Source of the DNA: Candidatus Saccharimonadota bacterium
Lineage (GTDB): Bacteria > Patescibacteriota > Saccharimonadia > Saccharimonadales > Saccharimonadaceae
Direction of reading: 5' to 3'
NCBI GenBank assembly: GCA_017548735.1
Contig: JAFYZJ010000013.1
Span: forward strand, 1 to 43,963
Length of the DNA: 43,963 nt
Of this stretch, positions 5,697 through 14,473 are shown one piece after another. Under the pieces are notes generated by a model. That model did not search any database, was not told the DNA's origin, and saw only the letters and a list, made by a program, of their open reading frames with translations. How positions within the stretch are numbered: the first letter of the stretch is position 1; the number at the start of each line of letters is the position of its first letter. Position numbers and translations under genes: made by a program.

Positions 5697-6248
5697 ATGG
5701 CCGTTAACCGTTATGATGGTACGCGCGCTTGGTACGCTGTGAGCACCTACTCCGGCTACGAAGACAAGGTTGCTGACTCGATTCGCCAGCGCCTCGACAG
5801 TATCGATTTCGCCGACAAGATTTTCGACGTAATGGTACCAAAAGAAAAGCAAATTGATATCAAGAACGGCAAACGCCGTATCGTTGAGAAAAAGATTTTC
5901 CAGGGCTACGTGCTCGTCGAAATGAAGCTCTCCGATGCTACTTGGTATATTATCCGCAACACCCCAGGCGTTACCGGCTTCGTCGGTACTGGCACTCAGC
6001 CAACCCCAGTTTCCAAGAAGGAAATTGAGAAGATCAAGAAGCGCATGGGCGTCGATGATCCAAAGTTTACCGTCAACTACTCTGCTGGCGAGGTCGTCTC
6101 CGTTACCGATGGTCCATTCAAGGGCTTTGAAGGTACGATTTCCGAAATCGACACCAATAAGGGCAAACTCAAGGTTCTCGTCTCCATGTTTGGTCGCGAA
6201 ACCGCTGTCGAGCTTGATGCTCTCCAGGTCAAGAAGATTGACGACTAA
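5697..6248 (+). CDS. nusG: transcription termination/antitermination factor NusG
   Basis: NGN domain motifs (WYAVSTYSGYE, FQGYVLVEM, PGVTGFVG) and a KOW motif (GEVVSVTDGPFKGFEGTI). Confidence 0.95.
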   Translation: MAVNRYDGTRAWYAVSTYSGYEDKVADSIRQRLDSIDFADKIFDVMVPKEKQIDIKNGKRRIVEKKIFQGYVLVEMKLSDATWYIIRNTPGVTGFVGTGTQPTPVSKKEIEKIKKRMGVDDPKFTVNYSAGEVVSVTDGPFKGFEGTISEIDTNKGKLKVLVSMFGRETAVELDALQVKKIDD

Positions 6249-6262
6249 TTAGTCTACCAAAG

Positions 6263-6289
6263 AGCCACCACTCGGTTGGTGGCTTTTTG
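6263..6289 (+). terminator. intrinsic terminator after nusG
   Basis: AGCCACCA / TTGGTGGCT stem followed by TTTTT. Confidence 0.7.
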
Positions 6290-6295
6290 ATGTCC

Positions 6296-6324
6296 TTGAC
6301 TTTTCCGATTGGGGGTGTTATAAT
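6296..6324 (+). promoter_or_regulatory. sigma-70 promoter
   Basis: TTGACT (6296-6301), a 17-nt spacer, then TATAAT (6319-6324). Confidence 0.6.
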
Positions 6325-6354
6325 ATTACTATCTTGTACCTTAGGAGGTTCCGT

Positions 6355-6834
6355 ATGAAACTATATATCTTTAATACCGAGTCGTTATCTTCGCAATACA
6401 GCGAAGCTAGCGACAAGATTATGAAAAAATCGATTGATCTTATCTTAGAAACACTCGGGAATATCAATGATGACGGCGAAACTTTCATTGTTGTAAAAGG
6501 AAAATATAGGCTCGGGTCAGATTTATCTGCGGCCCCAACCGAGTTGTTCTGTACTTATCTCACGAACTACAGAGATACTAGTACTAGCAAAACAAGAAGG
6601 CTCGCGAGGAGACTTGAAGAATTCTTCGCGAATGGTGACAAAAATACAATTCGTATTGCCCCGAATTTCGACGAAGGCGAAGACGTCAGACTCGAAGATC
6701 CATTAGTTTTATTAGATATAACAGTATACTATGAAACTAATCAGAAAGCCGACAAGTTGGGTGGAGTGAGTATCGTTGATTCTATCTATATACAACAGAA
6801 AATCAAGGAAGCTTTCCGCGAAAAGTACGACTAA
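6355..6834 (+). CDS. hypothetical protein (159 aa)
   Basis: ATG at 6355 follows an AGGAGG RBS, with a promoter upstream and a terminator downstream. No recognisable motif. Confidence 0.65.
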   Translation: MKLYIFNTESLSSQYSEASDKIMKKSIDLILETLGNINDDGETFIVVKGKYRLGSDLSAAPTELFCTYLTNYRDTSTSKTRRLARRLEEFFANGDKNTIRIAPNFDEGEDVRLEDPLVLLDITVYYETNQKADKLGGVSIVDSIYIQQKIKEAFREKYD

Positions 6835-6851
6835 CCCCCGTTATCAACAGA

Positions 6852-6876
6852 AAACCCGCTCAATTTGAGCGGGTTT
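6852..6876. terminator. bidirectional intrinsic terminator between convergent genes
   Basis: AAACCCGCTCA / TGAGCGGGTTT stem flanked by an A-run and a T-run. Confidence 0.65.
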
Positions 6877-6883
6877 AATGTTT

Positions 6884-8008
6884 TTACGGTAAACAGTTGC
6901 CGTTGGCGGCAATATTGCGATTGTAATACCTCTCGTCATCGGTAACTTCCTTGATGACTTCAAGATAATCAGGCACAATCAGCTTGTCATCGGGAGATAC
7001 AAATTCTACCTCGAGAATTGCAAACTCGTTAGAGGACGGATAAACATCTATCTCGAGATACTGACCCGAATCGCGCTGCATAATGCAGAATCTGTTCTTG
7101 TGAATCGAGTTCAGCCCCGGGATCGCATTCATCAGTTCGCTGACATATTCTTCGCGACTAATACGACGTTCGAGCTCGATTCTGACGGCCTTGTCGCTCG
7201 TACTACGCTTGATGGTCTTGGTGAAGATAAAGTCTCCGCCGTATGCACGCTGGCGGACACGAACTTCGTCATCAAATAAGTCACCCTTAAGATAGGTCTG
7301 CATAATCTCGCCTTCCTGGCAATTCGGCAGCGCGCGCAGATAGTCGAGATCGGGCATCTTGATCAGATACTTGCGCTCTATTTCATAGGGCATCGGCTCG
7401 CCAAGCATTACAGATATTTGCTTCAACAACGTCTTCAACTTCGTGTCGAGATCGCCTTCGTTCTTAATGATGCGCAGGTGAGGATGGCCAACCCAGGCAT
7501 TCTGCGTCTTCACGTCAAGCTTAACAGCCTCTTCGGGCGTCTCTGAGCGCGCCTCGTTATTCTGCAACGTGTAACACTCAATTGCGCCATCGGCTGTCGT
7601 GACAAGATGAAATACGGCATCATACTCGGCGACTGCGGCAGACACTACCCCGCGTCCAACACGGGTTACGACCTGTTCAAACTCGCGTGGGCTAACATAG
7701 GCCTTATTGTCATATAGGCCGCGGTCGCAAACAATCATGATTTTTTCGTTCTCCATCATGAGTGCCGCCTGCATTATGCGTTCTTCCTTTGCGAGCTGGG
7801 TCTTAAGAATCATCTCCTGAAAATACAGCGGATCCTTGAATGCCGTCGGAATTATTCCCGACGTAATCAGTTCCGTGGCCGCTTCGTTGACTATGAGGAC
7901 CTTCCAGCCGAGCTTCGTATAGAAGTTCGAAATCCAGCTCAATGCCGTTGTTTTACCGCCGCAAGGACCGCCCGTAAGTACAAACTTACAGATTTTTTTG
8001 TTCAGCAA
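6884..8008 (-). CDS. fusion protein: P-loop NTPase (NadR/AAA_28-like nucleoside kinase fold) plus C-terminal CYTH triphosphate-tunnel domain
   Basis: Walker A is GGPCGGKTT near the N-terminus. The C-terminal half begins with YEIERKYL, the ExExK signature of CYTH domains. I place the start at TTG 8008, 6 nt after AGGAGGTG. The longer ORF to 8122 has no RBS. Confidence 0.7.
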   Translation of the reverse strand: MLNKKICKFVLTGGPCGGKTTALSWISNFYTKLGWKVLIVNEAATELITSGIIPTAFKDPLYFQEMILKTQLAKEERIMQAALMMENEKIMIVCDRGLYDNKAYVSPREFEQVVTRVGRGVVSAAVAEYDAVFHLVTTADGAIECYTLQNNEARSETPEEAVKLDVKTQNAWVGHPHLRIIKNEGDLDTKLKTLLKQISVMLGEPMPYEIERKYLIKMPDLDYLRALPNCQEGEIMQTYLKGDLFDDEVRVRQRAYGGDFIFTKTIKRSTSDKAVRIELERRISREEYVSELMNAIPGLNSIHKNRFCIMQRDSGQYLEIDVYPSSNEFAILEVEFVSPDDKLIVPDYLEVIKEVTDDERYYNRNIAANGNCLP

Positions 8009-8113
8009 ATAAATCACCTCCTGTAACCGTTTTAAAGTACATTGGACAATCAATTTCCAATATCTGGATATAGTATAGCATAATTTGCAAAAATATGTTA
8101 TAATTATAGAGAT

Positions 8114-8140
8114 ACTCCTCAAGAGGAGTTTTGTTATTTT
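8114..8140 (+). promoter_or_regulatory. terminator-like hairpin in the leader of the 8179 operon (possible attenuator)
   Basis: ACTCCT-CAAG-AGGAGT stem followed by TTTTGTTATTTT. It sits between a TATAAT at about 8094-8099 and the RBS of the 8179 gene. Confidence 0.3.
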
Positions 8141-8178
8141 ACAATTTTGATTTTACATATGGAAGGAAGTGATGCAAC

Positions 8179-8991
8179 ATGAAGATTCGAGGTATCGAAG
8201 TCGACCCAAACGACTTCTTTGCACAAACGAAGAGGTTTAGGGTTTACCTTGGTAATTCGGACAAAGATGGACCTGTTATTCTGAAAGTCGCCAAGACTTT
8301 TGACGATAACGACGTCCTCAACGAAGATGCGGCGACATTTACTCGCTTAGCTGCGAACAGTCAGGAAATAGACGAGTACGAAACCAGCCTTGGTGGCGGG
8401 AATCGTTCTCGCTTTGACTTACTGTTTGCCAGCCTTTTGTCGACGTTTGTCGAAGCGTCTCAAGGTGACCGAAGGATCAATGTTTACCGCGTGCCAGATA
8501 CGAAGCTCAGCAAATTGCTTCCTCTTTCGAAGCTAAAGGCTGATTACGAAATCGACGCACGCAGCTGTGTCTGGATGATAGGGCGAATCCTGAAGTTTTA
8601 TATCTTGTTCGAGAAGGACAAAATGGATGGAAAAGAGACCGTCGCCAGATACCCGGATTTCTACCCAGAGGATTTCCTCATCGGGCCAGAACGCCACCGC
8701 GTAATCTATTACAACTATTCTGGCGGAGAAGACGACTCGATTGCCGACGGTCATATCAAGGCAATTGCGAAGTTTTTTCTCGAATGGATAGTCGTTAATG
8801 ACGAAGCCGAGCAGAGATTATACAATCTGCTCAAAGATTTTTCAGAACATGGTCGCAGTGAGTTTTACGATGCACACTCCAATCTCTATGCGCTCGCTAG
8901 TGAGCTCTGGGGACGTGGAGTGTATTATCCGTTTACTTACCGCGTCCGCGGAACAATCGCCTGGCAGAAACAGAAAGAGGAGGAAAAATAA
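8179..8991 (+). CDS. hypothetical protein, possibly a protein-kinase-like fold (degenerate)
   Basis: 270 aa with a GGAAGGAAG RBS. VILKVAK resembles a beta3 VAIK lysine. RYPDFYPEDFLIG resembles the HGDxHPxNhh catalytic loop of APH/choline-kinase-type kinases, with substitutions. The stop overlaps the next start (TAATG). Confidence 0.7.
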   Translation: MKIRGIEVDPNDFFAQTKRFRVYLGNSDKDGPVILKVAKTFDDNDVLNEDAATFTRLAANSQEIDEYETSLGGGNRSRFDLLFASLLSTFVEASQGDRRINVYRVPDTKLSKLLPLSKLKADYEIDARSCVWMIGRILKFYILFEKDKMDGKETVARYPDFYPEDFLIGPERHRVIYYNYSGGEDDSIADGHIKAIAKFFLEWIVVNDEAEQRLYNLLKDFSEHGRSEFYDAHSNLYALASELWGRGVYYPFTYRVRGTIAWQKQKEEEK

Positions 8992-10094
8992 TGGGCGACA
9001 CAACATTTTCTAAAAGTGACTACTTAAAGACACGCGAGGATTTAGGCATTACGGACGATAGAGGCGTTACTGCAATGGCAGAGCTAGAAGCCCGCGAATC
9101 CGGTATGCTAAATCCAATTGTTGACCCGGCCATCAATCCGATTCGCCGGTCAATGATAAGGCTAGTAGCCGAAAACAAGCATTGGGTTGCGAAGCTCGGC
9201 TGTCCGATGGATATCGAGGTGAGCTGCGATACTACTGCCTCAATGCAGGACGAAGTCGATAATCAAATGAGGGTTTTGCCCGATATGTATGAGGCAATCG
9301 CTAAAGTTCTTCAGGGATATGACCCGCAGCTTTGCTTGGGTATTTTCGGAGACTGTGTCGACGACTTCGTTTTATGCAGACCGCAATACGAGATGGAGGC
9401 GCCAAAGATTGTCAGATATCTGAATGTAATGGCCCCGCAGCGAGGCGGAGGCGGTAATGGCGGCGAAGATCCTCAGTATTCCATGCTGGCACGCGCTTAT
9501 CTTACAGACGCATATACAAACAACATTGGGCTGAAGGGCTACCATTTCATCATTACCGACGAGCCTTGCCATCACGATATTAGCGAAAGACAAATCAGGC
9601 GTATCTTTGGCGAAAATATCTTTGATAATGAGCTCAAAGAAATGAAGGGCGCAATAAAGTCTATCTACGGCATCGTTAGCGACCTCAAGAGCAAAGTTCA
9701 CGCGTTCGCGCTGATCGTAGACGGTCATTATCATTCAGATGAAGCATACGAATCCTACTGCAATCTTTATGGCAGAAAATCCGTAATCCGCATTGATTCG
9801 ACCGAGATGCTGCCGACGATAATATCGGCGATTATCGGGCTTACCGAAGGTACTGTCGAGATAACAGAGCTGAAAGAACGTTTCGGAGACGATATGGATT
9901 CTGAACTGATCAAGCAGCTCTCCAATATTGAGATCGGCGCACAGATGAAGCTGAGACATGCTATGAAGCGCCCAGTACCAAAGGCCGGTGACATCTTCGC
10001 AAAGAAGGGTGACCTCTGGCCGATTCAGCCGGGTGAACTCTCGGAAGATGAAGAAGCTGAGGAAACGGTAGCTGACATAATCAAGTATCTTTGA
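8991..10094 (+). CDS. von Willebrand factor A (vWA) domain protein with a MIDAS-like motif
   Basis: DIEVSCDTTASM is a DxTxS variant of the DxSxS MIDAS motif. A glycine-rich GGGGNGGED loop follows, then HFIITDEP, which is a TDG-like MIDAS Asp. Extra N- and C-terminal regions are present. The start overlaps the upstream stop by 1 nt. Confidence 0.7.
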   Translation: MGDTTFSKSDYLKTREDLGITDDRGVTAMAELEARESGMLNPIVDPAINPIRRSMIRLVAENKHWVAKLGCPMDIEVSCDTTASMQDEVDNQMRVLPDMYEAIAKVLQGYDPQLCLGIFGDCVDDFVLCRPQYEMEAPKIVRYLNVMAPQRGGGGNGGEDPQYSMLARAYLTDAYTNNIGLKGYHFIITDEPCHHDISERQIRRIFGENIFDNELKEMKGAIKSIYGIVSDLKSKVHAFALIVDGHYHSDEAYESYCNLYGRKSVIRIDSTEMLPTIISAIIGLTEGTVEITELKERFGDDMDSELIKQLSNIEIGAQMKLRHAMKRPVPKAGDIFAKKGDLWPIQPGELSEDEEAEETVADIIKYL

Positions 10095-10116
10095 TACTCG
10101 TTAGGAGGCGAAGGCT

Positions 10117-11367
10117 ATGCTCAATGAAGTCAGTATCGTTACGGACCTCGGTCCGGGTGACGGCGGTAAAGGCAAGGTCGTAAATGTTTTCTGCAACGAA
10201 GATAACATTTCATTAGTCATCAAGCGTGGCGGAGCACAAGGTTCGCACGGTGTTCGCTGTTCCAACGGTGAAAAATTTAATTTTTCCCAGTGGGGCTGTG
10301 GCACTTTCGAAGCAATTCCGACATTTCTGTCGCCACAGTTCATCGTTATGCCTGTTGGCCTAATTAATGAGTCTGAGGCACTGGAGCGCAAAGGAATTAT
10401 TAATCCTTTCCGGCTTCTCAGCTGCGACCCAGATTGTATCTGCGCCACCCCTTTCCACTGGATATCCTCACGATTAAGTGAGCTTCTCCGCGGAAAGAAC
10501 CCGCGCGGCACAATCGGTACTGGCGTTGGCCAGGCCTACCGCATGTTTCAGCAATCTGGAGACGAAATGACAATTCGCGCCCGCGAATTGACTGACCACA
10601 ATAAGATTGCTGATAAACTTTTCGCACAACTCAAATTTTACCGAGCTTGCTATCAATACAAGCCCGAAAATTATCTGGACGAAGACGCGGAACACGTCGC
10701 GGAATGCTTCGATTTGCTTAATGATGACGGCTTCTTGGACTACAACATCAATGAATTTGAGAAAGTAGGCCAAATGCTAAGCATTACATCCTTATCTGAA
10801 GCAATCAACAATCACGACGGTTCTGCTGTAATAGAATGTTCGCACGGTGTTTTAACTGACGCAGTAGAGGGCTTTAAGCCGCACACTAGCGCCATTCGCA
10901 CCCTACCGAAATTCACAGAAGAGATGATGAGAAATGCCGGTTTTACCGGTCGAATTAGGCATTATGCCGTACACCGCGCCTATGAAATTAGGCATGGTGC
11001 TGGCCCAATGTCGACATACGACCCCGAGTTTACCAAACATATGCTTCCTGACAGCCATAAAGCGAATAATCGCTGGCAAGGCGAAGTACGTGCCGGTCCT
11101 CTCGACATCAACCTCATCCAGCATGCCCTCGCGGCATGCAAAGACACGAGTTTCGATGGGTTGTGCCTGACTTGGTTTGACCAGATTCTCGAAATGGGAA
11201 GCTGGAAAATCAACGACGACATTATCCCGATCGACTCCAAACTAACCGGAATAGACCTTTGGCGTTTCGTTGAGAATATCATCGATTCGCGCATTGGTTT
11301 ATCTCTAGAATTACTCTCAATTGGCCCAACAGAGCGCGACAGATTACGCGCCCAAGATTTCATTTAG
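10117..11367 (+). CDS. divergent adenylosuccinate synthetase (PurA)-family protein
   Basis: Colinear with PurA motifs: GPGDGGKGK vs QWGDEGKGK; GGAQGSHG vs GGHNAGH; GTIGTGVGQAY vs GTTGRGIGPAY; YEIRHGAGPMSTYDPEF vs TRVGxGPFPTE. The GTTGRxRRxGW block is replaced by NNRWQGEVRAGPLD. AGGAGG RBS. Confidence 0.75.
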   Translation: MLNEVSIVTDLGPGDGGKGKVVNVFCNEDNISLVIKRGGAQGSHGVRCSNGEKFNFSQWGCGTFEAIPTFLSPQFIVMPVGLINESEALERKGIINPFRLLSCDPDCICATPFHWISSRLSELLRGKNPRGTIGTGVGQAYRMFQQSGDEMTIRARELTDHNKIADKLFAQLKFYRACYQYKPENYLDEDAEHVAECFDLLNDDGFLDYNINEFEKVGQMLSITSLSEAINNHDGSAVIECSHGVLTDAVEGFKPHTSAIRTLPKFTEEMMRNAGFTGRIRHYAVHRAYEIRHGAGPMSTYDPEFTKHMLPDSHKANNRWQGEVRAGPLDINLIQHALAACKDTSFDGLCLTWFDQILEMGSWKINDDIIPIDSKLTGIDLWRFVENIIDSRIGLSLELLSIGPTERDRLRAQDFI

Positions 11368-11378
11368 GAGGTATAGCC

Positions 11379-12635
11379 ATGAGTGAAGAGATTAAGAACA
11401 CAACAGCAGAAGAATCCGTAGTAGAAGTAGTTGCAGCAAACCCTGCAACACCCGATGCTCCGGTCGTAGATGCTACACCGGCACCCGCAATTCCAGCACC
11501 GACACCCACTGCAGCAAGCCCTGTCGAACAGAAGCTTACAGAGTATGGCGCAAACGGTGCCACAATTCAGAAAATTCTCGATCTCGGCGTCGAGTCTGTC
11601 GAAGATTTGTCGACCTTAACCGATAGCGATCTCGTAGACGCTGGCATGAAGCTTGTCAAAGCGCGCAAACTTATCGGCGACCTGAAGGCCGAAGCTAAGC
11701 CCGCAGCGACAACACCGACCGCCGCTTCTGGTTTTGTTTTCCCTAGCGCAATAAATTCAATTCTTCCGTCCGTCCCTACAGACGAAGTCTGGATGAACAG
11801 CCTGAAAACCGGTGGCGTATTGAGAATCGATGATTCTACATATATTGCCGCAATTAAGACAGCATTAGCAGCAAAGGTAGGCTTGTATAATGCGCCTCAG
11901 TTGCTCATAGACGAGATGGAGAGACATGCGAAGGATATTGGCGAGCCTGTAGATGCTGACGTATTCTATAAGCTCGTAAAGATGCTGACAAGACACGATT
12001 ATTCCGACATTTTCGCAGCCATCGATGGCTGCTCTGGAGCGTTCATCAACGACAAGCGTCGTAAAGAATTCCTCCAGGAAATCGATAATCACTTCTTGCC
12101 GGCAATCGCAGCTAGCTACCGCGCCCTCGATAGTTGGTATGAGGGATATAAGGATAGCTTTTCTGATCAAATGATGTTGATGGCCTTTATCGCCGGTGGA
12201 GCGAATTCGGGAATTGGCAGTATGATACAGACGCCGGACACTTCCGTAGTTCGCGCAGCAAGAGATACGTTCGTCGACGAGATTAATAAGACTTTTGCTG
12301 GTTGCGGCGTACAGTCCGCTTCCGCCTTAGCGCTCATCGCAAGAGATATTCTCGGGCAGTTTAACGATAATCGCCTTCCGAAATTGGTTGGCGCCGAAAA
12401 CCGCGAACTCATGCTCAAGAAGCTTGGCCTGGACGTTTCTAGTTCCTACGCGCGCCTCGAGCAGATTCTCTCGCAGTATGTTCTCGCATTTGTGAAGCTG
12501 GATGAAGCAACACCCGATACTGAAGCACGCTATTTGGCAGCGCTTTGGCAGCTCGGTTCTCAGATTGACTGGGAGAGCCTTAATATCAGAAGAAATAAAG
12601 GCTCGAAGAGTATCACAGGCAGTGATATTCTGTAA
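11379..12635 (+). CDS. hypothetical protein: Pro/Ala/Thr-rich N-terminus, HhH-like segment, large alpha-helical domain of unknown function
   Basis: 418 aa with a GGAGG RBS 11 nt after the upstream stop. ATIQKILDLGVESVEDL...DAGMKLVKARKLIGDLK looks like a tandem helix-hairpin-helix. The rest has no recognisable motif. Confidence 0.7.
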   Translation: MSEEIKNTTAEESVVEVVAANPATPDAPVVDATPAPAIPAPTPTAASPVEQKLTEYGANGATIQKILDLGVESVEDLSTLTDSDLVDAGMKLVKARKLIGDLKAEAKPAATTPTAASGFVFPSAINSILPSVPTDEVWMNSLKTGGVLRIDDSTYIAAIKTALAAKVGLYNAPQLLIDEMERHAKDIGEPVDADVFYKLVKMLTRHDYSDIFAAIDGCSGAFINDKRRKEFLQEIDNHFLPAIAASYRALDSWYEGYKDSFSDQMMLMAFIAGGANSGIGSMIQTPDTSVVRAARDTFVDEINKTFAGCGVQSASALALIARDILGQFNDNRLPKLVGAENRELMLKKLGLDVSSSYARLEQILSQYVLAFVKLDEATPDTEARYLAALWQLGSQIDWESLNIRRNKGSKSITGSDIL

Positions 12636-12664
12636 TTTCCAGAGTAAAATCAAAACATAAAAGA

Positions 12665-12690
12665 AGACCCCCAAGTACGGGGGTCTTTTT
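12665..12690. terminator. bidirectional intrinsic terminator
   Basis: AGACCCCC / GGGGGTCT stem flanked by an A-run and a T-run, between convergent genes. Confidence 0.7.
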
Positions 12691-12699
12691 CTTGCCCTT

Positions 12700-13860
12700 T
12701 TATAGCCAAACGTATTTAGCAAAGAGCATTGTGGCGATTTTACGGTATTCATCGTCGTAGAACGGACAATCGCCGTCCATTTCCTTAGGAATGCCATTCC
12801 CTTTCCAATTGTAGAATCTAGCGAATCCCTTGTGGAGCAGACGATACAGCAAAAGATCACTCTCAAGCCTTTCAATGCAGCGACGACGCGCAAACTCGTC
12901 GATATCCTTATATCTAGCAACCACGGCGCGTCGCGCAATCTCCATGCGCTCCTGCGCCTTCGGACCACCCAACCAAACACTATCATAGTAGATATGAATG
13001 CCTTCCGGGCTGCCGGGATAGTATTTCCCGACTACGAGTAAATCGTCGAGCAGATACGGATCGATGTCAGAGTTTACGCTGGCGTAACCCTTTATCAGCG
13101 AACCGTTCACCAACACGACTTTTTCCGGCTCAAGCGAAGACGCGATTTCTTCCAGCCTAGGCATTATGATGTGCAGATTATCAGAGAACGGTCCTTCCAG
13201 CTTCGCGCATGGCGTGAGAGCCACGAATGACTGCCCTTTCTCGTCAAGCCACTTCTTACGGCTTTCTGAGACGTAGAGCGGTTCCTGGCGTGTACGATTG
13301 GGCAAATAGCACAGTATCTCGCGAATTTTCTCAATCCGGTCTTTTTGCTTGATTAGTTTCTGTTCGACGCAGTAGGTCATCACATCTTTGAAACTCTGCA
13401 ACATGATGTAGTTATTTCTGCGACTAGCCCCCTCAATGATTGTCTGGAGCTCATACGCCGAAATGTAGCTATTCTTGAGCAGCCAAGGAGTCAAGTGTGC
13501 AGACTTCGATACTCGCTGTAAACCTTCTTCCGGTCGCGCATCGACTTCGAAACAGTCGCCAAAATGGAAATTTTCCCGCACGTCATAGACATACAAGAGT
13601 TCATACCATGCGTCACGGTATACATCTATAAATTCCCTGGGCGCCGCTTCGAGCGTACTAAGTGGAAGATACAGCGCAAGGCGCCTCGCTTCCGGTTTTC
13701 TCAATAGTTCGGTGCAGGCTTTGTAATAATCGACTCTCTTCGACCCTGAAGGGTCTTTGAGATAATCACAAATCCTCATCGCAGCCGACTTCCTTGGACA
13801 GGAATCCGGCTCGGCCTCTTCGTAACGTGTTTCGATATACGGCTTTAGATAGTTAACCAT
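12700..13860 (-). CDS. Pol-beta-superfamily nucleotidyltransferase domain protein with a large N-terminal domain of unknown function
   Basis: VNGSLIKGYASVNSDIDPYL matches the hG[GS]-x9-13-D-h-D minimal NTase motif. I place the start at ATG 13860 (MVNYLKP) after AGGGGGA. The longer ORF to 14127 would overlap rplK and its promoter. Confidence 0.7.
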   Translation of the reverse strand: MVNYLKPYIETRYEEAEPDSCPRKSAAMRICDYLKDPSGSKRVDYYKACTELLRKPEARRLALYLPLSTLEAAPREFIDVYRDAWYELLYVYDVRENFHFGDCFEVDARPEEGLQRVSKSAHLTPWLLKNSYISAYELQTIIEGASRRNNYIMLQSFKDVMTYCVEQKLIKQKDRIEKIREILCYLPNRTRQEPLYVSESRKKWLDEKGQSFVALTPCAKLEGPFSDNLHIIMPRLEEIASSLEPEKVVLVNGSLIKGYASVNSDIDPYLLDDLLVVGKYYPGSPEGIHIYYDSVWLGGPKAQERMEIARRAVVARYKDIDEFARRRCIERLESDLLLYRLLHKGFARFYNWKGNGIPKEMDGDCPFYDDEYRKIATMLFAKYVWL

Positions 13861-13941
13861 AAAATCCCCCTTTCTTGTAATGTGCAATAGTAATGTTATT
13901 ATGCCATATTTTGCTATTTTTTTCAATGGGGCACCTTCTCC

Positions 13942-13970
13942 TTGCAAAAAACGCCAAAATCCGGTATAAT
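13942..13970 (+). promoter_or_regulatory. consensus sigma-70 promoter of rplK
   Basis: TTGCAA (13942-13947), a 17-nt spacer, then TATAAT (13965-13970). A leader of about 70 nt follows, with ACGAT/ATCGT and GCCGG/CCGGC hairpins. Confidence 0.65.
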
Positions 13971-14047
13971 AGACCGCGTTACGCACGATTATTAATCGTA
14001 ATCGCCGGTGAAGCGCTTCAAAAACCGGCAAAAGGAAAATTAATAAC

Positions 14048-14473
14048 ATGGCAAAACAGGTTATTGGCAACTTGAAGTTGCGCATCCCTGGTGGTAAGGC
14101 GACGGCCGGTCCTCCAGTAGGTAGCACACTCGGTCAGTGGGGTCTCAATATGATGGACTTCATTAACCCATTCAACGAAGCCACCAAAGAATACATGGGC
14201 AAGAATGTGATTGTTCACATCGCTGTCTATGATGATCGCACTTTCGATTGGAAGTGCCTTGGCCAGCCAGTTGACGATTTGATCCGCGAAAAGATCAAGC
14301 TCGAAAAAGGCAGCGGTCGCCCAAACACTGAGAAAGTTGGTAAGATTACCATGGCTCAGATCAAGGAAATCGCAGAAGTCAAGAAAGGTCAGCTCAACGC
14401 TATCGACGAAGCTGGCGCTTGCAAGATTATTGCCGGCACCGCACGCTCGATGGGCGTCGAAGTTGTCGAATAA
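14048..14473 (+). CDS. rplK: 50S ribosomal protein L11
   Basis: LKLRIPGGKATAGPPVGSTLGQWGLNMMDF and full-length colinearity with L11. Confidence 0.95.
   Translation: MAKQVIGNLKLRIPGGKATAGPPVGSTLGQWGLNMMDFINPFNEATKEYMGKNVIVHIAVYDDRTFDWKCLGQPVDDLIREKIKLEKGSGRPNTEKVGKITMAQIKEIAEVKKGQLNAIDEAGACKIIAGTARSMGVEVVE

What the first reader, a model, noticed from the sequence alone, without database searches (positions are those of the whole stretch)
8179..12635. Four-gene coupled operon (kinase-fold? / vWA / PurA-like / HhH-unknown): candidate undescribed nucleotide-centred system
Four ORFs are packed head-to-tail. The first junction is a TAATG 1-nt overlap, and the next two are 22-nt and 11-nt gaps that each carry a GGAGG RBS. 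One leader lies upstream and one strong bidirectional terminator follows at 12665-12690.

The encoded combination matches no pathway or named defence system I know:
- a 270-aa protein with degenerate protein-kinase-like motifs;
- a vWA/MIDAS protein;
- a full-length but substrate-site-divergent adenylosuccinate-synthetase homolog;
- a 418-aa protein with a low-complexity linker, an HhH-like module and a large uncharacterised helical domain.

No other purine-biosynthesis gene is present in the window. The operon is flanked by a P-loop-kinase-CYTH fusion and a Pol-beta nucleotidyltransferase, so five of the seven genes in the block plausibly bind or modify nucleotides. vWA domains recur as sensor or scaffold parts of NTP-dependent conflict systems. 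From this I infer a nucleotide-modifying or nucleotide-signalling system for defence, conflict or host interaction. I cannot establish function from sequence.
Basis: partly seen in the sequence, partly recalled or inferred. Interest (0 to 1): 0.9.

Follow-up and report, generated by a model that had tools for sequence, protein, structure and literature searches.

The report
Phage-derived pseudokinase–vWA–PurA-like gene module
The four-gene operon is real, but it is the Saccharibacteria version (five genes, including the convergent nucleotidyltransferase) of an undescribed pseudokinase / vWA / remodelled adenylosuccinate-synthetase-like gene set that is widespread in large phages and whose chemistry is unknown.

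Summary
Four tightly coupled ORFs lie at 8179-12635, with the stated junctions, ribosome-binding sites and terminator. All four fold calls were confirmed: degenerate kinase, vWA/MIDAS, PurA-like, and HhH plus an unknown helical domain.

The boundaries need correcting. In 65 Saccharibacteria loci exactly five families travel together. These are A-D plus the convergent Pol-beta nucleotidyltransferase E (12700-13860, minus strand). The genomic contexts vary and include an integrated prophage.

The evolutionary core is smaller and much wider. The vWA-PurA-like pair occurs in 76 of 80 IMG/VR phage loci, the pseudokinase in at least 35 of them, and all three genes stand in the same order in mycobacteriophage Tonenili, one of about 200 mycobacteriophage records that carry the PurA-like gene.

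The PurA-like enzyme keeps the catalytic and GTP-binding residues in all 92 sequences. Its L-aspartate site is replaced by an invariant [WFY]-Q-G motif with R303 deleted. It retains Asp13, which PurZ replaces with Ser. It is therefore neither PurA nor PurZ.

There were no PADLOC hits, and I found no literature describing this gene set. The function remains inferred: a GTP-driven ligation of a non-aspartate amine, carried out with the vWA partner and used in phage-host conflict. Interest is high; confidence in the mechanism is low.

The parts
6334..6834 (+). 166-aa ORF at the left edge of the island, followed by a terminator-like hairpin at 6852-6876. Lineage-specific cargo; not part of the conserved module.
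   Evidence: No family hit. Found only in the near-identical locus L005.
6884..8122 (-). P-loop NTPase (AAA_28, NadR/dNK-like) fused to a CYTH domain. Loosely associated neighbour.
   Evidence: PF13521 1e-19; CYTH weak in Pfam, but phrog_6660 2e-15 over residues 244-409. Near the module in 7 of 62 loci only.
8179..8991 (+). A: protein-kinase-fold pseudokinase.
   Evidence: phrog_3043 'kinase' 6e-5. Family profile versus CK2-alpha 1.4e-3, in register. hhalign to the Tonenili Ser/Thr-kinase-like gp106: 98.3%, 2e-14. None of the common residues at the HRD Asp position is Asp in 32 viral and 24 Saccharibacteria sequences. The VAIK Lys and DFG Asp are only partly kept, and the DFG position is Asn in the window protein.
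8991..10094 (+). B: vWA domain protein with a DxTxS MIDAS motif, a conserved N-terminus (M-G-x3-[FWY]-x4-Y) and an acidic C-terminal tail.
   Evidence: AlphaFold pLDDT 89, pTM 0.89. Foldseek PDB vWA hits with E down to 7.6e-7. Invariant D80, T82, S84 and D190. hhalign to the phage partners of PurA-like: 98.6% (Tonenili), 98.6% (Vibrio), 98.0% (Rhizobium).
10117..11367 (+). C: PurA-superfamily GTP-dependent ligase of a distinct subfamily. Catalytic D13, K16 and H41 and the guanine-binding D333 and S414 are kept. The L-Asp site is replaced.
   Evidence: PF00709 3e-27, but only 62 bits against the 402-bit NCBIfam purA cut-off. Residue census over 71 viral and 21 Saccharibacteria sequences. Best annotated relatives are the Bixzunavirus 'PurA-like' proteins, 30% identity, 4e-31.
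11379..12635 (+). D: low-complexity N-terminus, then a RAD51/RadA-type (HhH)2 domain, a linker, and a roughly 290-aa all-helical domain with no detectable relatives. Specific to Saccharibacteria.
   Evidence: SAM_TNK/HHH_5 hits in 21 and 9 of 26 members. Foldseek: 63 residues onto the RAD51 N-domain, rmsd 3.3, prob 1.0. No PDB or BFVD hit at E<=0.001 for the rest of the protein. Absent from 80 viral loci and from GenBank phages.
12664..12687 (.). Shared bidirectional intrinsic terminator between the convergent genes D and E.
   Evidence: 10-bp stem with 6 G-C pairs and T-runs on both strands.
12700..13860 (-). E: Pol-beta-superfamily nucleotidyltransferase (GS-x10-D-x-D motif) with an uncharacterised N-terminal domain and a helical C-terminal domain. 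Fifth fixed member of the Saccharibacteria module.
   Evidence: Adjacent to A-D in most of the 59 of 65 loci that have an E match. Invariant G253, S254 and D265, with S264 and D267 nearly invariant. Family profile versus the HI0073 MNT-type NTase 1.9e-4, and versus GLD-2 poly(A) polymerases 0.1. Not RlaP: hhalign probability 0.2%.

Best explanation
SHOWN.
- The operon is the Saccharibacteria form of a mobile, phage-associated gene module.
- Its ancient core is an obligate pair: a vWA/MIDAS protein (B) and a PurA-superfamily enzyme (C). A catalytically dead protein-kinase-fold protein (A) usually precedes them.
- Saccharibacteria added a (HhH)2 + novel-helical-domain protein (D) and a Pol-beta nucleotidyltransferase (E).
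- In this genome the set sits on a roughly 7.8-kb island inserted between nusG and rplK.

INFERRED from established PurA enzymology (Asp13 as base, His41 as acid, gamma-phosphate transfer to a purine C6 carbonyl, then displacement by an amine).
- C is still an active GTP-dependent 'phosphorylate a carbonyl, then aminate' ligase.
- It no longer uses L-aspartate. It probably does not bind IMP in the canonical way either, because the 5'-phosphate ligands are changed.
- It works in a complex with B, which either presents the acceptor or is itself the acceptor or regulator. A acts as a non-catalytic scaffold or nucleotide sensor.
- In Saccharibacteria, D (nucleic-acid binding) and E (nucleotide addition) couple this chemistry to a nucleic-acid or nucleotide end product.

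BIOLOGICAL ROLE, also inferred.
- A phage-host conflict function: host takeover or counter-defence in phages that look lytic, and lysogenic-conversion or exclusion cargo in Saccharibacteria.
- It is not purine housekeeping.
For: Co-occurrence in Saccharibacteria:
- Five and only five families co-occur across 65 Saccharibacteria loci. No other family occurs in more than 9 loci.
- More divergent metagenome loci keep A-B-C with E and, in at least one, D, in shuffled arrangements.

The core in phages:
- The B-C pair is present in 76 of 80 IMG/VR loci. A is in 35 by HMM and in 40 by clustering. D and E are in none.
- The same A-B-C order occurs in Mycobacterium phage Tonenili; the PurA-like gene is in about 200 mycobacteriophage records.
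- The B-C pair occurs in the 196-kb Vibrio phage TDDLMA and in Rhizobium phage RHph_Y65.
- A natural A-B fusion protein exists (P0307).

Residue census of C:
- D13, K16, H41, D333 kept in 100% of the 21 Saccharibacteria and 99-100% of the 71 viral sequences; S414 in 66 of 71 viral and all 21 Saccharibacteria sequences.
- N38->Q and V273->H almost without exception.
- T300-T301-G-R303 becomes [WFY]-Q-G with R303 deleted.
- R305 becomes hydrophobic.
- T129 and R143 are not kept.

Mobility:
- In L066/L007 the module lies inside a prophage, between the terminase/lysin genes and the integrase that abuts queA.
- The surroundings of the window are housekeeping genes.
- Viral neighbourhoods carry Nampt, RNA ligase, RlaP, Pnkp and NADAR, which are auxiliary or counter-defence genes.
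Against: - No biochemical datum exists. The substrate, the acceptor and even the requirement for B are inferences from conservation.
- Conserved adjacency could reflect co-regulation rather than a complex.
- PADLOC gives nothing, and no toxin-like effector is recognisable.
- The function of the module in a chromosome with no phage genes around it (this window) is not explained by a purely phage-benefit role.
- The helical domain of D and the N-terminal domain of E are complete unknowns. Either could carry the key activity.
Confidence: 0.5

Rival explanations
1. An anti-phage defence or abortive-infection system of Saccharibacteria. The triad senses infection and makes a nucleotide-derived signal or conjugate, and D and E act as effectors.
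For: - A self-contained module in variable contexts.
- Prophage cargo next to the integrase, a typical position for exclusion or defence morons.
- An island inserted into a conserved ribosomal-protein cluster.
- D and E are additions specific to cellular genomes and prophages.
Against: - No PADLOC hit for any of the seven proteins.
- The core triad is overwhelmingly carried by large phages, of which the best-known carriers (the Bixzunavirus mycobacteriophages) are, to my knowledge, lytic.
- No recognisable toxic effector domain.
Confidence: 0.25
2. A nucleic-acid base-modification or RNA-repair module. The PurA-like enzyme activates an O6/O4 carbonyl of a base in RNA or DNA (for example inosine or guanine) and aminates it. 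The vWA protein acts as a Ro60-like platform. D binds the nucleic acid and E adds nucleotides to an end.
For: - The IMP 5'-phosphate ligands (T129, R143, N38) are lost, as expected if the substrate is not a free 5'-mononucleotide.
- D has a RAD51-type (HhH)2 domain.
- E resembles MNT and GLD-2 NTases.
- RlaP, a CCA-adding enzyme and DUF2828 lie downstream in L003.
- Pnkp and RlaP lie within about 3 kb in Tonenili.
- RNA ligase occurs in 5 viral neighbourhoods.
Against: - None of these RNA-repair neighbours is conserved; each is in at most 9 of 80 loci.
- No PurA-family enzyme is known to act on polymers.
- No structured RNA was found in the island.
Confidence: 0.12
3. A nucleotide-pool rescue enzyme. 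It would re-aminate IMP/ITP (or dIMP) to adenine nucleotides in one step, using ammonia or another donor. This would counter deaminase-based immunity (RADAR RdrB, Cad1, KomA) or feed a purine-auxotrophic host.
For: - The catalytic machinery and the GTP site are intact while only the Asp site is remodelled.
- No purB lies nearby.
- It sits among auxiliary-metabolism genes such as Nampt in phages.
Against: - It does not explain the near-obligate vWA partner or the pseudokinase.
- The IMP phosphate ligands are also changed.
- The idea rests on my own knowledge of those defence systems and was not tested here.
Confidence: 0.08
4. An ordinary adenylosuccinate synthetase (PurA) or a PurZ of a Z-genome phage, with unrelated neighbours.
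For: - PF00709 hit.
- RefSeq and PHROG label relatives '2-aminooxy adenylosuccinate synthetase'.
Against: - 62 bits against the 402-bit equivalog cut-off.
- The Asp-binding residues T300, T301, R303 and R305 are all replaced or deleted.
- PurZ has Ser at position 13 in all 147 phage sequences studied (PMC12884076). All 92 sequences here have Asp.
- No datZ, mazZ, dpoZ or dutZ-like family is conserved nearby.
Confidence: 0.03

Closest known systems
Adenylosuccinate synthetase PurA (EC 6.3.4.4; PF00709, TIGR00184)
   Same: Same fold over about 350 residues. P-loop GD-x-GKG with Asp13 and Lys16, His41, and guanine-specificity Asp333 and Ser414 are all conserved. Hence probably the same GTP-dependent carbonyl-phosphorylation chemistry.
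   Different: - About 24% identity.
- Far below the equivalog cut-offs.
- The L-aspartate site is replaced by [WFY]-Q-G with a one-residue deletion.
- N38->Q, V273->H, and T129 and R143 are lost.
- Always paired with a vWA gene.
- Phage or island context, with no purB.
PurZ / PurZ0 (2-aminoadenylosuccinate synthetase of Z-genome phages)
   Same: A phage-borne PurA paralogue. PHROG and RefSeq use the same label for both.
   Different: PurZ has Ser (Gly in archaea) at position 13 and keeps aspartate as substrate. This subfamily has Asp13 and has lost the aspartate site. No DatZ, MazZ, DpoZ or DutZ partners.
Bixzunavirus (mycobacteriophage cluster C1) 'PurA-like adenylosuccinate synthetase' with the adjacent 'serine/threonine kinase' and hypothetical protein (Tonenili gp106-gp105-gp104)
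   Same: Homologous trio in the same order. C: 30% identity, 4e-31. B: hhalign 98.6%. A: hhalign 98.3%. Same C-subfamily signature.
   Different: - The phage kinase-like protein has an extra N-terminal J-domain-like segment with an HPD motif, and keeps Lys, Asn and the DFG Asp.
- No D or E.
- The phage genes are annotated but, as far as I could find, never studied.
TerY-P triad (vWA TerY + Ser/Thr kinase + PP2C phosphatase; candidate defence system)
   Same: A vWA protein encoded next to a protein-kinase-fold protein in a three-gene cassette found on mobile DNA.
   Different: - No phosphatase.
- The kinase lacks its catalytic Asp.
- The third gene is a PurA-like ligase.
- The PADLOC TerY-P models do not hit A or B.

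Membership tests
Adenylosuccinate synthetase PurA | PF00709 fold with the catalytic Asp13, Lys16 and His41 | tested here: met
   PF00709 3e-27. D13, K16 and H41 are present in 92 of 92 sequences.
Adenylosuccinate synthetase PurA | Reaches the curated equivalog score (TIGR00184 / NF002223) | tested here: not met
   60-62 bits against cut-offs of 395-402.
Adenylosuccinate synthetase PurA | L-aspartate-binding residues Thr300/Thr301, Arg303, Arg305 | tested here: not met
   Replaced by [WFY]-Q-G. R303 is deleted in all 92 sequences, and R305 is Leu, Phe or Val.
Adenylosuccinate synthetase PurA | IMP 5'-phosphate ligands Asn38, Thr129 and Arg143 | tested here: not met
   N38->Q (91 of 92). T129->Cys, Val or Ile. 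R143 is not conserved.
Adenylosuccinate synthetase PurA | Catalyses IMP + Asp + GTP -> adenylosuccinate | not testable with these tools
   Needs an enzyme assay or purA complementation.
PurZ / PurZ0 | Ser (not Asp) at PurA position 13 | tested here: not met
   Asp in all 92 sequences. The criterion comes from PMC12884076.
PurZ / PurZ0 | Co-occurrence with DatZ/MazZ/DpoZ or DutZ/DmtZ | tested here: not met
   No family other than A-E is conserved near C in cellular loci, and none other than A-C in viral loci. These partner families were not searched for by name.
vWA / MIDAS domain proteins | Rossmann-like vWA fold | tested here: met
   Model with pLDDT 89. 171 PDB matches at E<=0.001; the listed top matches are vWA / integrin I-like domains.
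vWA / MIDAS domain proteins | MIDAS motif DxSxS plus downstream Thr and Asp | tested here: met
   D80-x-T82-x-S84 and D190 are invariant. Phage homologues have D-[VF]-[TS]-G-S. Metal binding itself cannot be tested here.
Active Ser/Thr protein kinases (Pkinase) | Kinase fold | tested here: met
   Weak but in register: phrog_3043 6e-5, CK2 1.4e-3. The homologous Tonenili gp106 passes the Pfam Pkinase gathering score, 35.6 against 31.7. No structure was predicted for A.
Active Ser/Thr protein kinases (Pkinase) | Catalytic Asp of HRD, VAIK Lys, DFG Asp | tested here: not met
   - None of the common residues at the HRD Asp position is Asp in 56 sequences (mostly Ala or Gly in phages).
- Lys in 20 of 32 viral and 9 of 24 Saccharibacteria sequences.
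- DFG Asp in 19 of 32 and 11 of 24.
- The window protein has Lys, but no HRD motif, and Asn at the DFG position.
TerY-P triad and other PADLOC-DB v2 defence systems | Match to any component model | tested here: not met
   No family at E<=1 for all seven proteins of the island.
Pol-beta nucleotidyltransferase superfamily (protein E) | hG[GS]-x9-13-Dh[DE]h motif | tested here: met
   GGSRLKGYG-x3-SDxD is invariant or nearly so. Profile hit to the HI0073 NTase at 1.9e-4.
RlaP (PF10127) NTases | Profile similarity beyond the active-site motif | tested here: not met
   hhalign of the E family against the Tonenili RlaP: probability 0.2%. No Pfam hit for E.

The most novel reading that the evidence does not exclude
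The PurA-like enzyme has swapped free L-aspartate for a macromolecular amine. One candidate is the alpha-amine of the conserved N-terminal glycine of its vWA partner. The enzyme would then covalently join a purine nucleotide, through C6, to a protein. In Saccharibacteria the Pol-beta NTase could extend that nucleotide. This would be a previously unknown base-linked protein-nucleotide conjugation, used by hundreds of large phages.
Probability: 0.1. Interest if true: 0.92.

Novelty: categorically new. Interest (0 to 1): 0.78.

Why it matters
- It defines a third, coherent branch of the adenylosuccinate-synthetase superfamily, after PurA and PurZ. The branch has intact catalytic machinery but a different, strictly conserved acceptor site.
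- The branch is almost always encoded next to a dedicated vWA/MIDAS protein, and often next to a pseudokinase.
- The set is abundant.
- It bridges large phages and the ultra-small epibiotic Saccharibacteria, whose hosts are Actinobacteria.
- Mycobacteriophages of this group, such as Tonenili and I3, grow on M. smegmatis, so the question can be tested directly by genetics and biochemistry.
- Whatever the product is (a new nucleotide, a modified nucleic-acid base or a protein-nucleotide conjugate), it would add a new reaction to phage-host conflict biology. It would also correct a widespread mis-annotation ('2-aminooxy adenylosuccinate synthetase').

Tried and rejected
- **Apparent A-B gene fusions in L016, L023, L024, L035 and L047.** These came from a bug in my ORF extension. 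The stop codon is present and is followed by K-M-G.
- **Apparent B-C fusion in L061.** It is a run of N bases.
- **Searches that found nothing for B and D.** Pfam, NCBIfam and PADLOC on single sequences and on every family member, and PDB profile searches. The fold of B only emerged from structure prediction.
- **Helical domain of D.** No match in PDB or BFVD. No phage tblastn hit. No remote homologue in the 5.8-billion-sequence search.
- **D and E homologues in Bixzunavirus.** Not found. gp102 and gp099 do not match D, and the RlaP gp003 shares only the NTase motif with E. tblastn of E and of B against GenBank phages was empty at that sensitivity. B homology needed profile comparison.
- **Idea: the invariant N-terminal Gly of B is the nucleophile.**
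  - Initially attractive, because nearly all viral B proteins start M-G.
  - Only 50 of 88 full-length representatives start M-G.
  - A divergent metagenome sub-clade (probably Saccharibacteria or other CPR) starts MA/MS and still keeps the module.
  - The natural A-B fusion P0307 buries that end.
  - I keep it only as a low-probability reading.
- **Rfam scan of the island.** Only a sub-threshold rsmX match, taken as chance.
- **Literature.** Nine searches, eight aimed at this gene set; none produced a paper describing the gene set.

Full report
**1. The observation**

The four ORFs exist exactly as described: 8179-8991, 8991-10094, 10117-11367 and 11379-12635, all on the + strand.
- The first junction is TAATG.
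- The next two gaps are 22 and 11 nt, and each carries GGAGG.
- A strong hairpin with T-runs on both sides lies at 12664-12687.

The window is a piece of a Saccharibacteria (TM7) genome.
- The best relatives of every gene are Saccharibacteria MAG proteins.
- The surroundings are housekeeping genes: glucan phosphorylase, secE, nusG, rplK, cdsA, rplA, thioredoxin reductase, LicD and LytR.
- The operon and three further genes form a roughly 7.8-kb island (about 6250-14047). The island splits the normally contiguous secE-nusG | rplK-rplA cluster.

**2. What the proteins are**

*A (270 aa)* has a protein-kinase fold.
- Supporting hits: phrog_3043 'kinase' 6e-5, a family profile against CK2-alpha at 1.4e-3 in the correct register, and hhalign at 98.3% to a phage Ser/Thr-kinase-like protein.
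- None of the common residues at the HRD catalytic Asp position is Asp across 56 aligned family members.
- The VAIK Lys and the DFG Asp are only partly conserved.
- It is therefore a pseudokinase.

*B (367 aa)* gave no sequence-level hit.
- Its AlphaFold model (pLDDT 89) is an unambiguous vWA domain. It matches integrin beta-I, SpaC, TFIIH p44 and RGLG with E down to 7.6e-7.
- It has an invariant DxTxS...D MIDAS motif.

*C (416 aa)* is a PurA-superfamily protein (PF00709, 3e-27). It scores only 62 bits against a 402-bit equivalog cut-off.

*D (418 aa)* has three parts.
- A disordered Ala/Pro-rich N-terminus.
- A domain that superposes on the N-terminal (HhH)2 domain of RAD51/RadA: 63 residues, rmsd 3.3 Å.
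- A well-predicted helical domain of about 290 residues with no match in PDB or BFVD.

*E*, the convergent downstream gene (12700-13860, minus strand), is a Pol-beta nucleotidyltransferase. It carries GGSRLKGYG-x3-SDxD, and its family profile hits the HI0073 NTase at 1.9e-4.

**3. The real unit**

I fetched 61 loci from one-genome-per-species GTDB representatives, all Saccharibacteria, and four more through exact-protein look-ups.
- tblastn and all-against-all clustering show that exactly five families (A, B, C, D and E) occur together. The order A-B-C-D is almost invariant, with E usually convergent behind D.
- No other family is present in more than 9 of 62 loci.
- More divergent metagenome relatives still keep A-B-C with E and, in at least one locus, D, in shuffled arrangements.
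- The module is therefore a self-contained five-gene cassette that moves between genomic contexts.

**4. The phage connection**

One locus comes from IMG/VR (L066). Its flanks encode a large terminase, a ParB-methyltransferase and an endolysin.
- The syntenic MAG contig L007 continues past the module into a tyrosine integrase and then queA.
- There the cassette is prophage cargo, close to the integrase end.

The closest annotated relatives of C are the 'PurA-like adenylosuccinate synthetase' genes of about 200 mycobacteriophage records; the one examined, Tonenili, is a Bixzunavirus (30% identity, 4e-31).
- In Tonenili the gene order is kinase (gp106), hypothetical (gp105), PurA-like (gp104).
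- Profile comparison shows gp106 is homologous to A (98.3%, 2e-14) and gp105 to B (98.6%, 5.6e-16).
- The B-C pair also precedes the PurA-like gene in a 196-kb Vibrio phage and in a 207-kb Rhizobium phage.

- In the best 80 loci, mostly contigs of 100-490 kb, a B homologue lies within 5 kb in 76. It is usually directly upstream.
- Three of the four exceptions are contigs cut just before C.
- An A homologue is present in 35 loci by HMM and in 40 by clustering.
- D and E are in none.
- No further family is conserved around the triad. Occasional neighbours are Nampt, RNA ligase, a glutamine-synthetase-like gene, Metallophos, NADAR, RlaP and Pnkp.

A natural A-B fusion protein exists (P0307). The B family has 715 representatives at E<=1e-3 among 1.84 billion cluster representatives.

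**5. The enzyme**

I aligned 71 distinct viral and 21 Saccharibacteria C proteins to E. coli PurA.
- Kept: Asp13, Lys16 and His41 in all 92 sequences; Asp333 in 70 of 71 viral and all 21 Saccharibacteria; Ser414 in 66 of 71 and all 21. So are Gly12, Gly17, Glu221, Gly225, Arg272 and Gly274.
- Changed in a uniform way:
  - Asn38->Gln (91 of 92).
  - Val273->His (92 of 92).
  - The aspartate loop A-T-T-G-R303-R-R305 becomes x-[WFY]-Q-G. Arg303 is deleted in all sequences, and Arg305 becomes Leu, Phe or Val.
- Thr129 and Arg143, which hold the IMP 5'-phosphate, are not kept.

From established PurA enzymology, the machinery that moves the GTP gamma-phosphate onto a C6 carbonyl is intact and guanine-specific. 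The amine-donor pocket, and part of the nucleotide pocket, have been rebuilt and then frozen.

PurZ is excluded. A 2026 survey reports Ser at position 13 in all 147 phage PurZ/PurZ0 sequences (PMC12884076). All 92 sequences here have Asp.

This is a third, coherent branch of the superfamily.

**6. Mechanism: what is shown and what is inferred**

Shown:
- the composition, conservation and mobility of the module;
- the fold of each part;
- the residue signature of C;
- the pseudokinase state of A.

Inferred:
- C is an active GTP-dependent ligase with a non-aspartate amine acceptor.
- C functions together with B. The support is near-obligate adjacency across very distant phages, plus an A-B fusion.
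- A is a scaffold or sensor.
- D and E connect the chemistry to a nucleic acid or a nucleotide end in Saccharibacteria.
- The biological role is phage-host conflict rather than purine supply.

I considered a specific idea: that the N-terminal glycine of B is the acceptor.
- For it: nearly all of the 64 distinct viral B proteins start M-G, and 50 match the fuller M-G-x(2-4)-[FWY] motif. The Saccharibacteria, Mycobacterium, Vibrio and Rhizobium versions share that N-terminus at only 22-24% overall identity.
- Against it: only 50 of 88 full-length representatives start M-G. A sub-clade that starts MA/MS keeps the module. The A-B fusion buries that end.
- I keep it as the most novel reading, at about 10%.

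**7. Rivals**

- A defence or exclusion system (25%). This fits the prophage-cargo position and the island behaviour. PADLOC is silent, and the core belongs to phages that look lytic.
- A nucleic-acid base-modification or RNA-repair role (12%). This fits the lost 5'-phosphate ligands, the HhH domain of D, the NTase E and occasional RNA-repair neighbours. None of those neighbours is conserved.
- One-step re-amination of IMP/ITP to counter deaminase immunity (8%). This does not explain B and A.
- Plain PurA or PurZ (3%). The residue census contradicts it.

**8. Comparison with what is known, and novelty**

The nearest described entities are:
- PurA and PurZ: same fold and chemistry, different acceptor site and different partners;
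- the annotated but unstudied Bixzunavirus trio;
- the TerY-P triad, loosely: vWA + kinase + phosphatase, with no model match here.

Nine full-text searches and readings of the jumbo-phage and NTP-dependent conflict-system surveys found no description of a vWA-PurA-like pair or of the pentad.

I therefore rate it as categorically new as a system. The caveats are that its parts have known folds and that subscription literature was not searchable.

**9. Verdict**

The finding is larger than stated, because it points to a widespread phage triad. It is also less settled: defence is not demonstrated, and the four-gene boundary was wrong. Interest 0.78.

Noticed in passing
window 6250-14047; also L001, L008, L023, L032, L060, L062, L155: The island interrupts the normally contiguous secE-nusG | rplK-rplA cluster. 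In several other Saccharibacteria or CPR loci the module again lies within a few kb of nusG, rplK or rplJ. This region may be a recurrent insertion hot spot.
   Followed up: partly
window 6884-8122 (-): Fusion of a P-loop AAA_28 (NadR/dNK-like) NTPase to a CYTH domain. It recurs near the module in two lineages only (7 of 62 loci). Function unknown.
   Followed up: partly
window 8991-9025 (N-terminus of B); L067 5950-, L069 4031-, L070 2977-: The N-terminus M-G-x3-[FWY]-x4-Y of the vWA protein is conserved between Saccharibacteria and Mycobacterium, Vibrio and Rhizobium phages at 22-24% overall identity. Nearly all of the 64 distinct viral homologues start M-G. A divergent metagenome sub-clade does not.
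   Followed up: yes
protein P0307 (679 aa, metagenomic): A natural fusion of the pseudokinase (A) and the vWA protein (B) in one polypeptide. This supports a physical A-B partnership. Its genomic context was not examined.
   Followed up: partly
L067 4841-5914 (Tonenili gp106): The phage kinase-like partner carries an N-terminal J-domain-like segment with an HPD motif (Pfam DnaJ 1e-3, below threshold). This hints at recruitment of host Hsp70. The segment is absent from the Saccharibacteria A proteins.
   Followed up: no
window 10040-10094 (C-terminus of B): The Saccharibacteria B proteins end in a disordered acidic tail that finishes with an aromatic residue plus Leu (…KYL, …EYL, …DWL). This is not conserved in the phage homologues.
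   Followed up: no
L003/L004 12489-17332; L068 467-1318; L067 3587-4111: RNA-repair-type genes sit close to the module in some elements: RlaP NTase, CCA-adding enzyme and DUF2828/TROVE-like vWA in L003; RlaP and polynucleotide kinase in Tonenili. They are not conserved partners.
   Followed up: partly
window 12700-14127 (-) versus 14048-14473 (+): The longest ORF for the NTase (GTG at 14127, 475 aa) overlaps rplK by 80 nt. Homologues are about 390 aa. The ATG at 13860 (MVNYLKP…) is the probable start.
   Followed up: yes
L088 2598-4124 and eight other viral loci; L069 2483-3133: Nicotinamide phosphoribosyltransferase (9 of 80 viral loci) and a NADAR-domain gene (Vibrio phage TDDLMA) lie within a few kb of the triad. 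NAD-salvage and ADP-ribose-reversal genes are typical of counter-defence regions.
   Followed up: no
window 6200-6288 (+): Sub-threshold Rfam match to rsmX (30.9 bits against a gathering score of 56) in the nusG-downstream spacer. Most likely chance.
   Followed up: no
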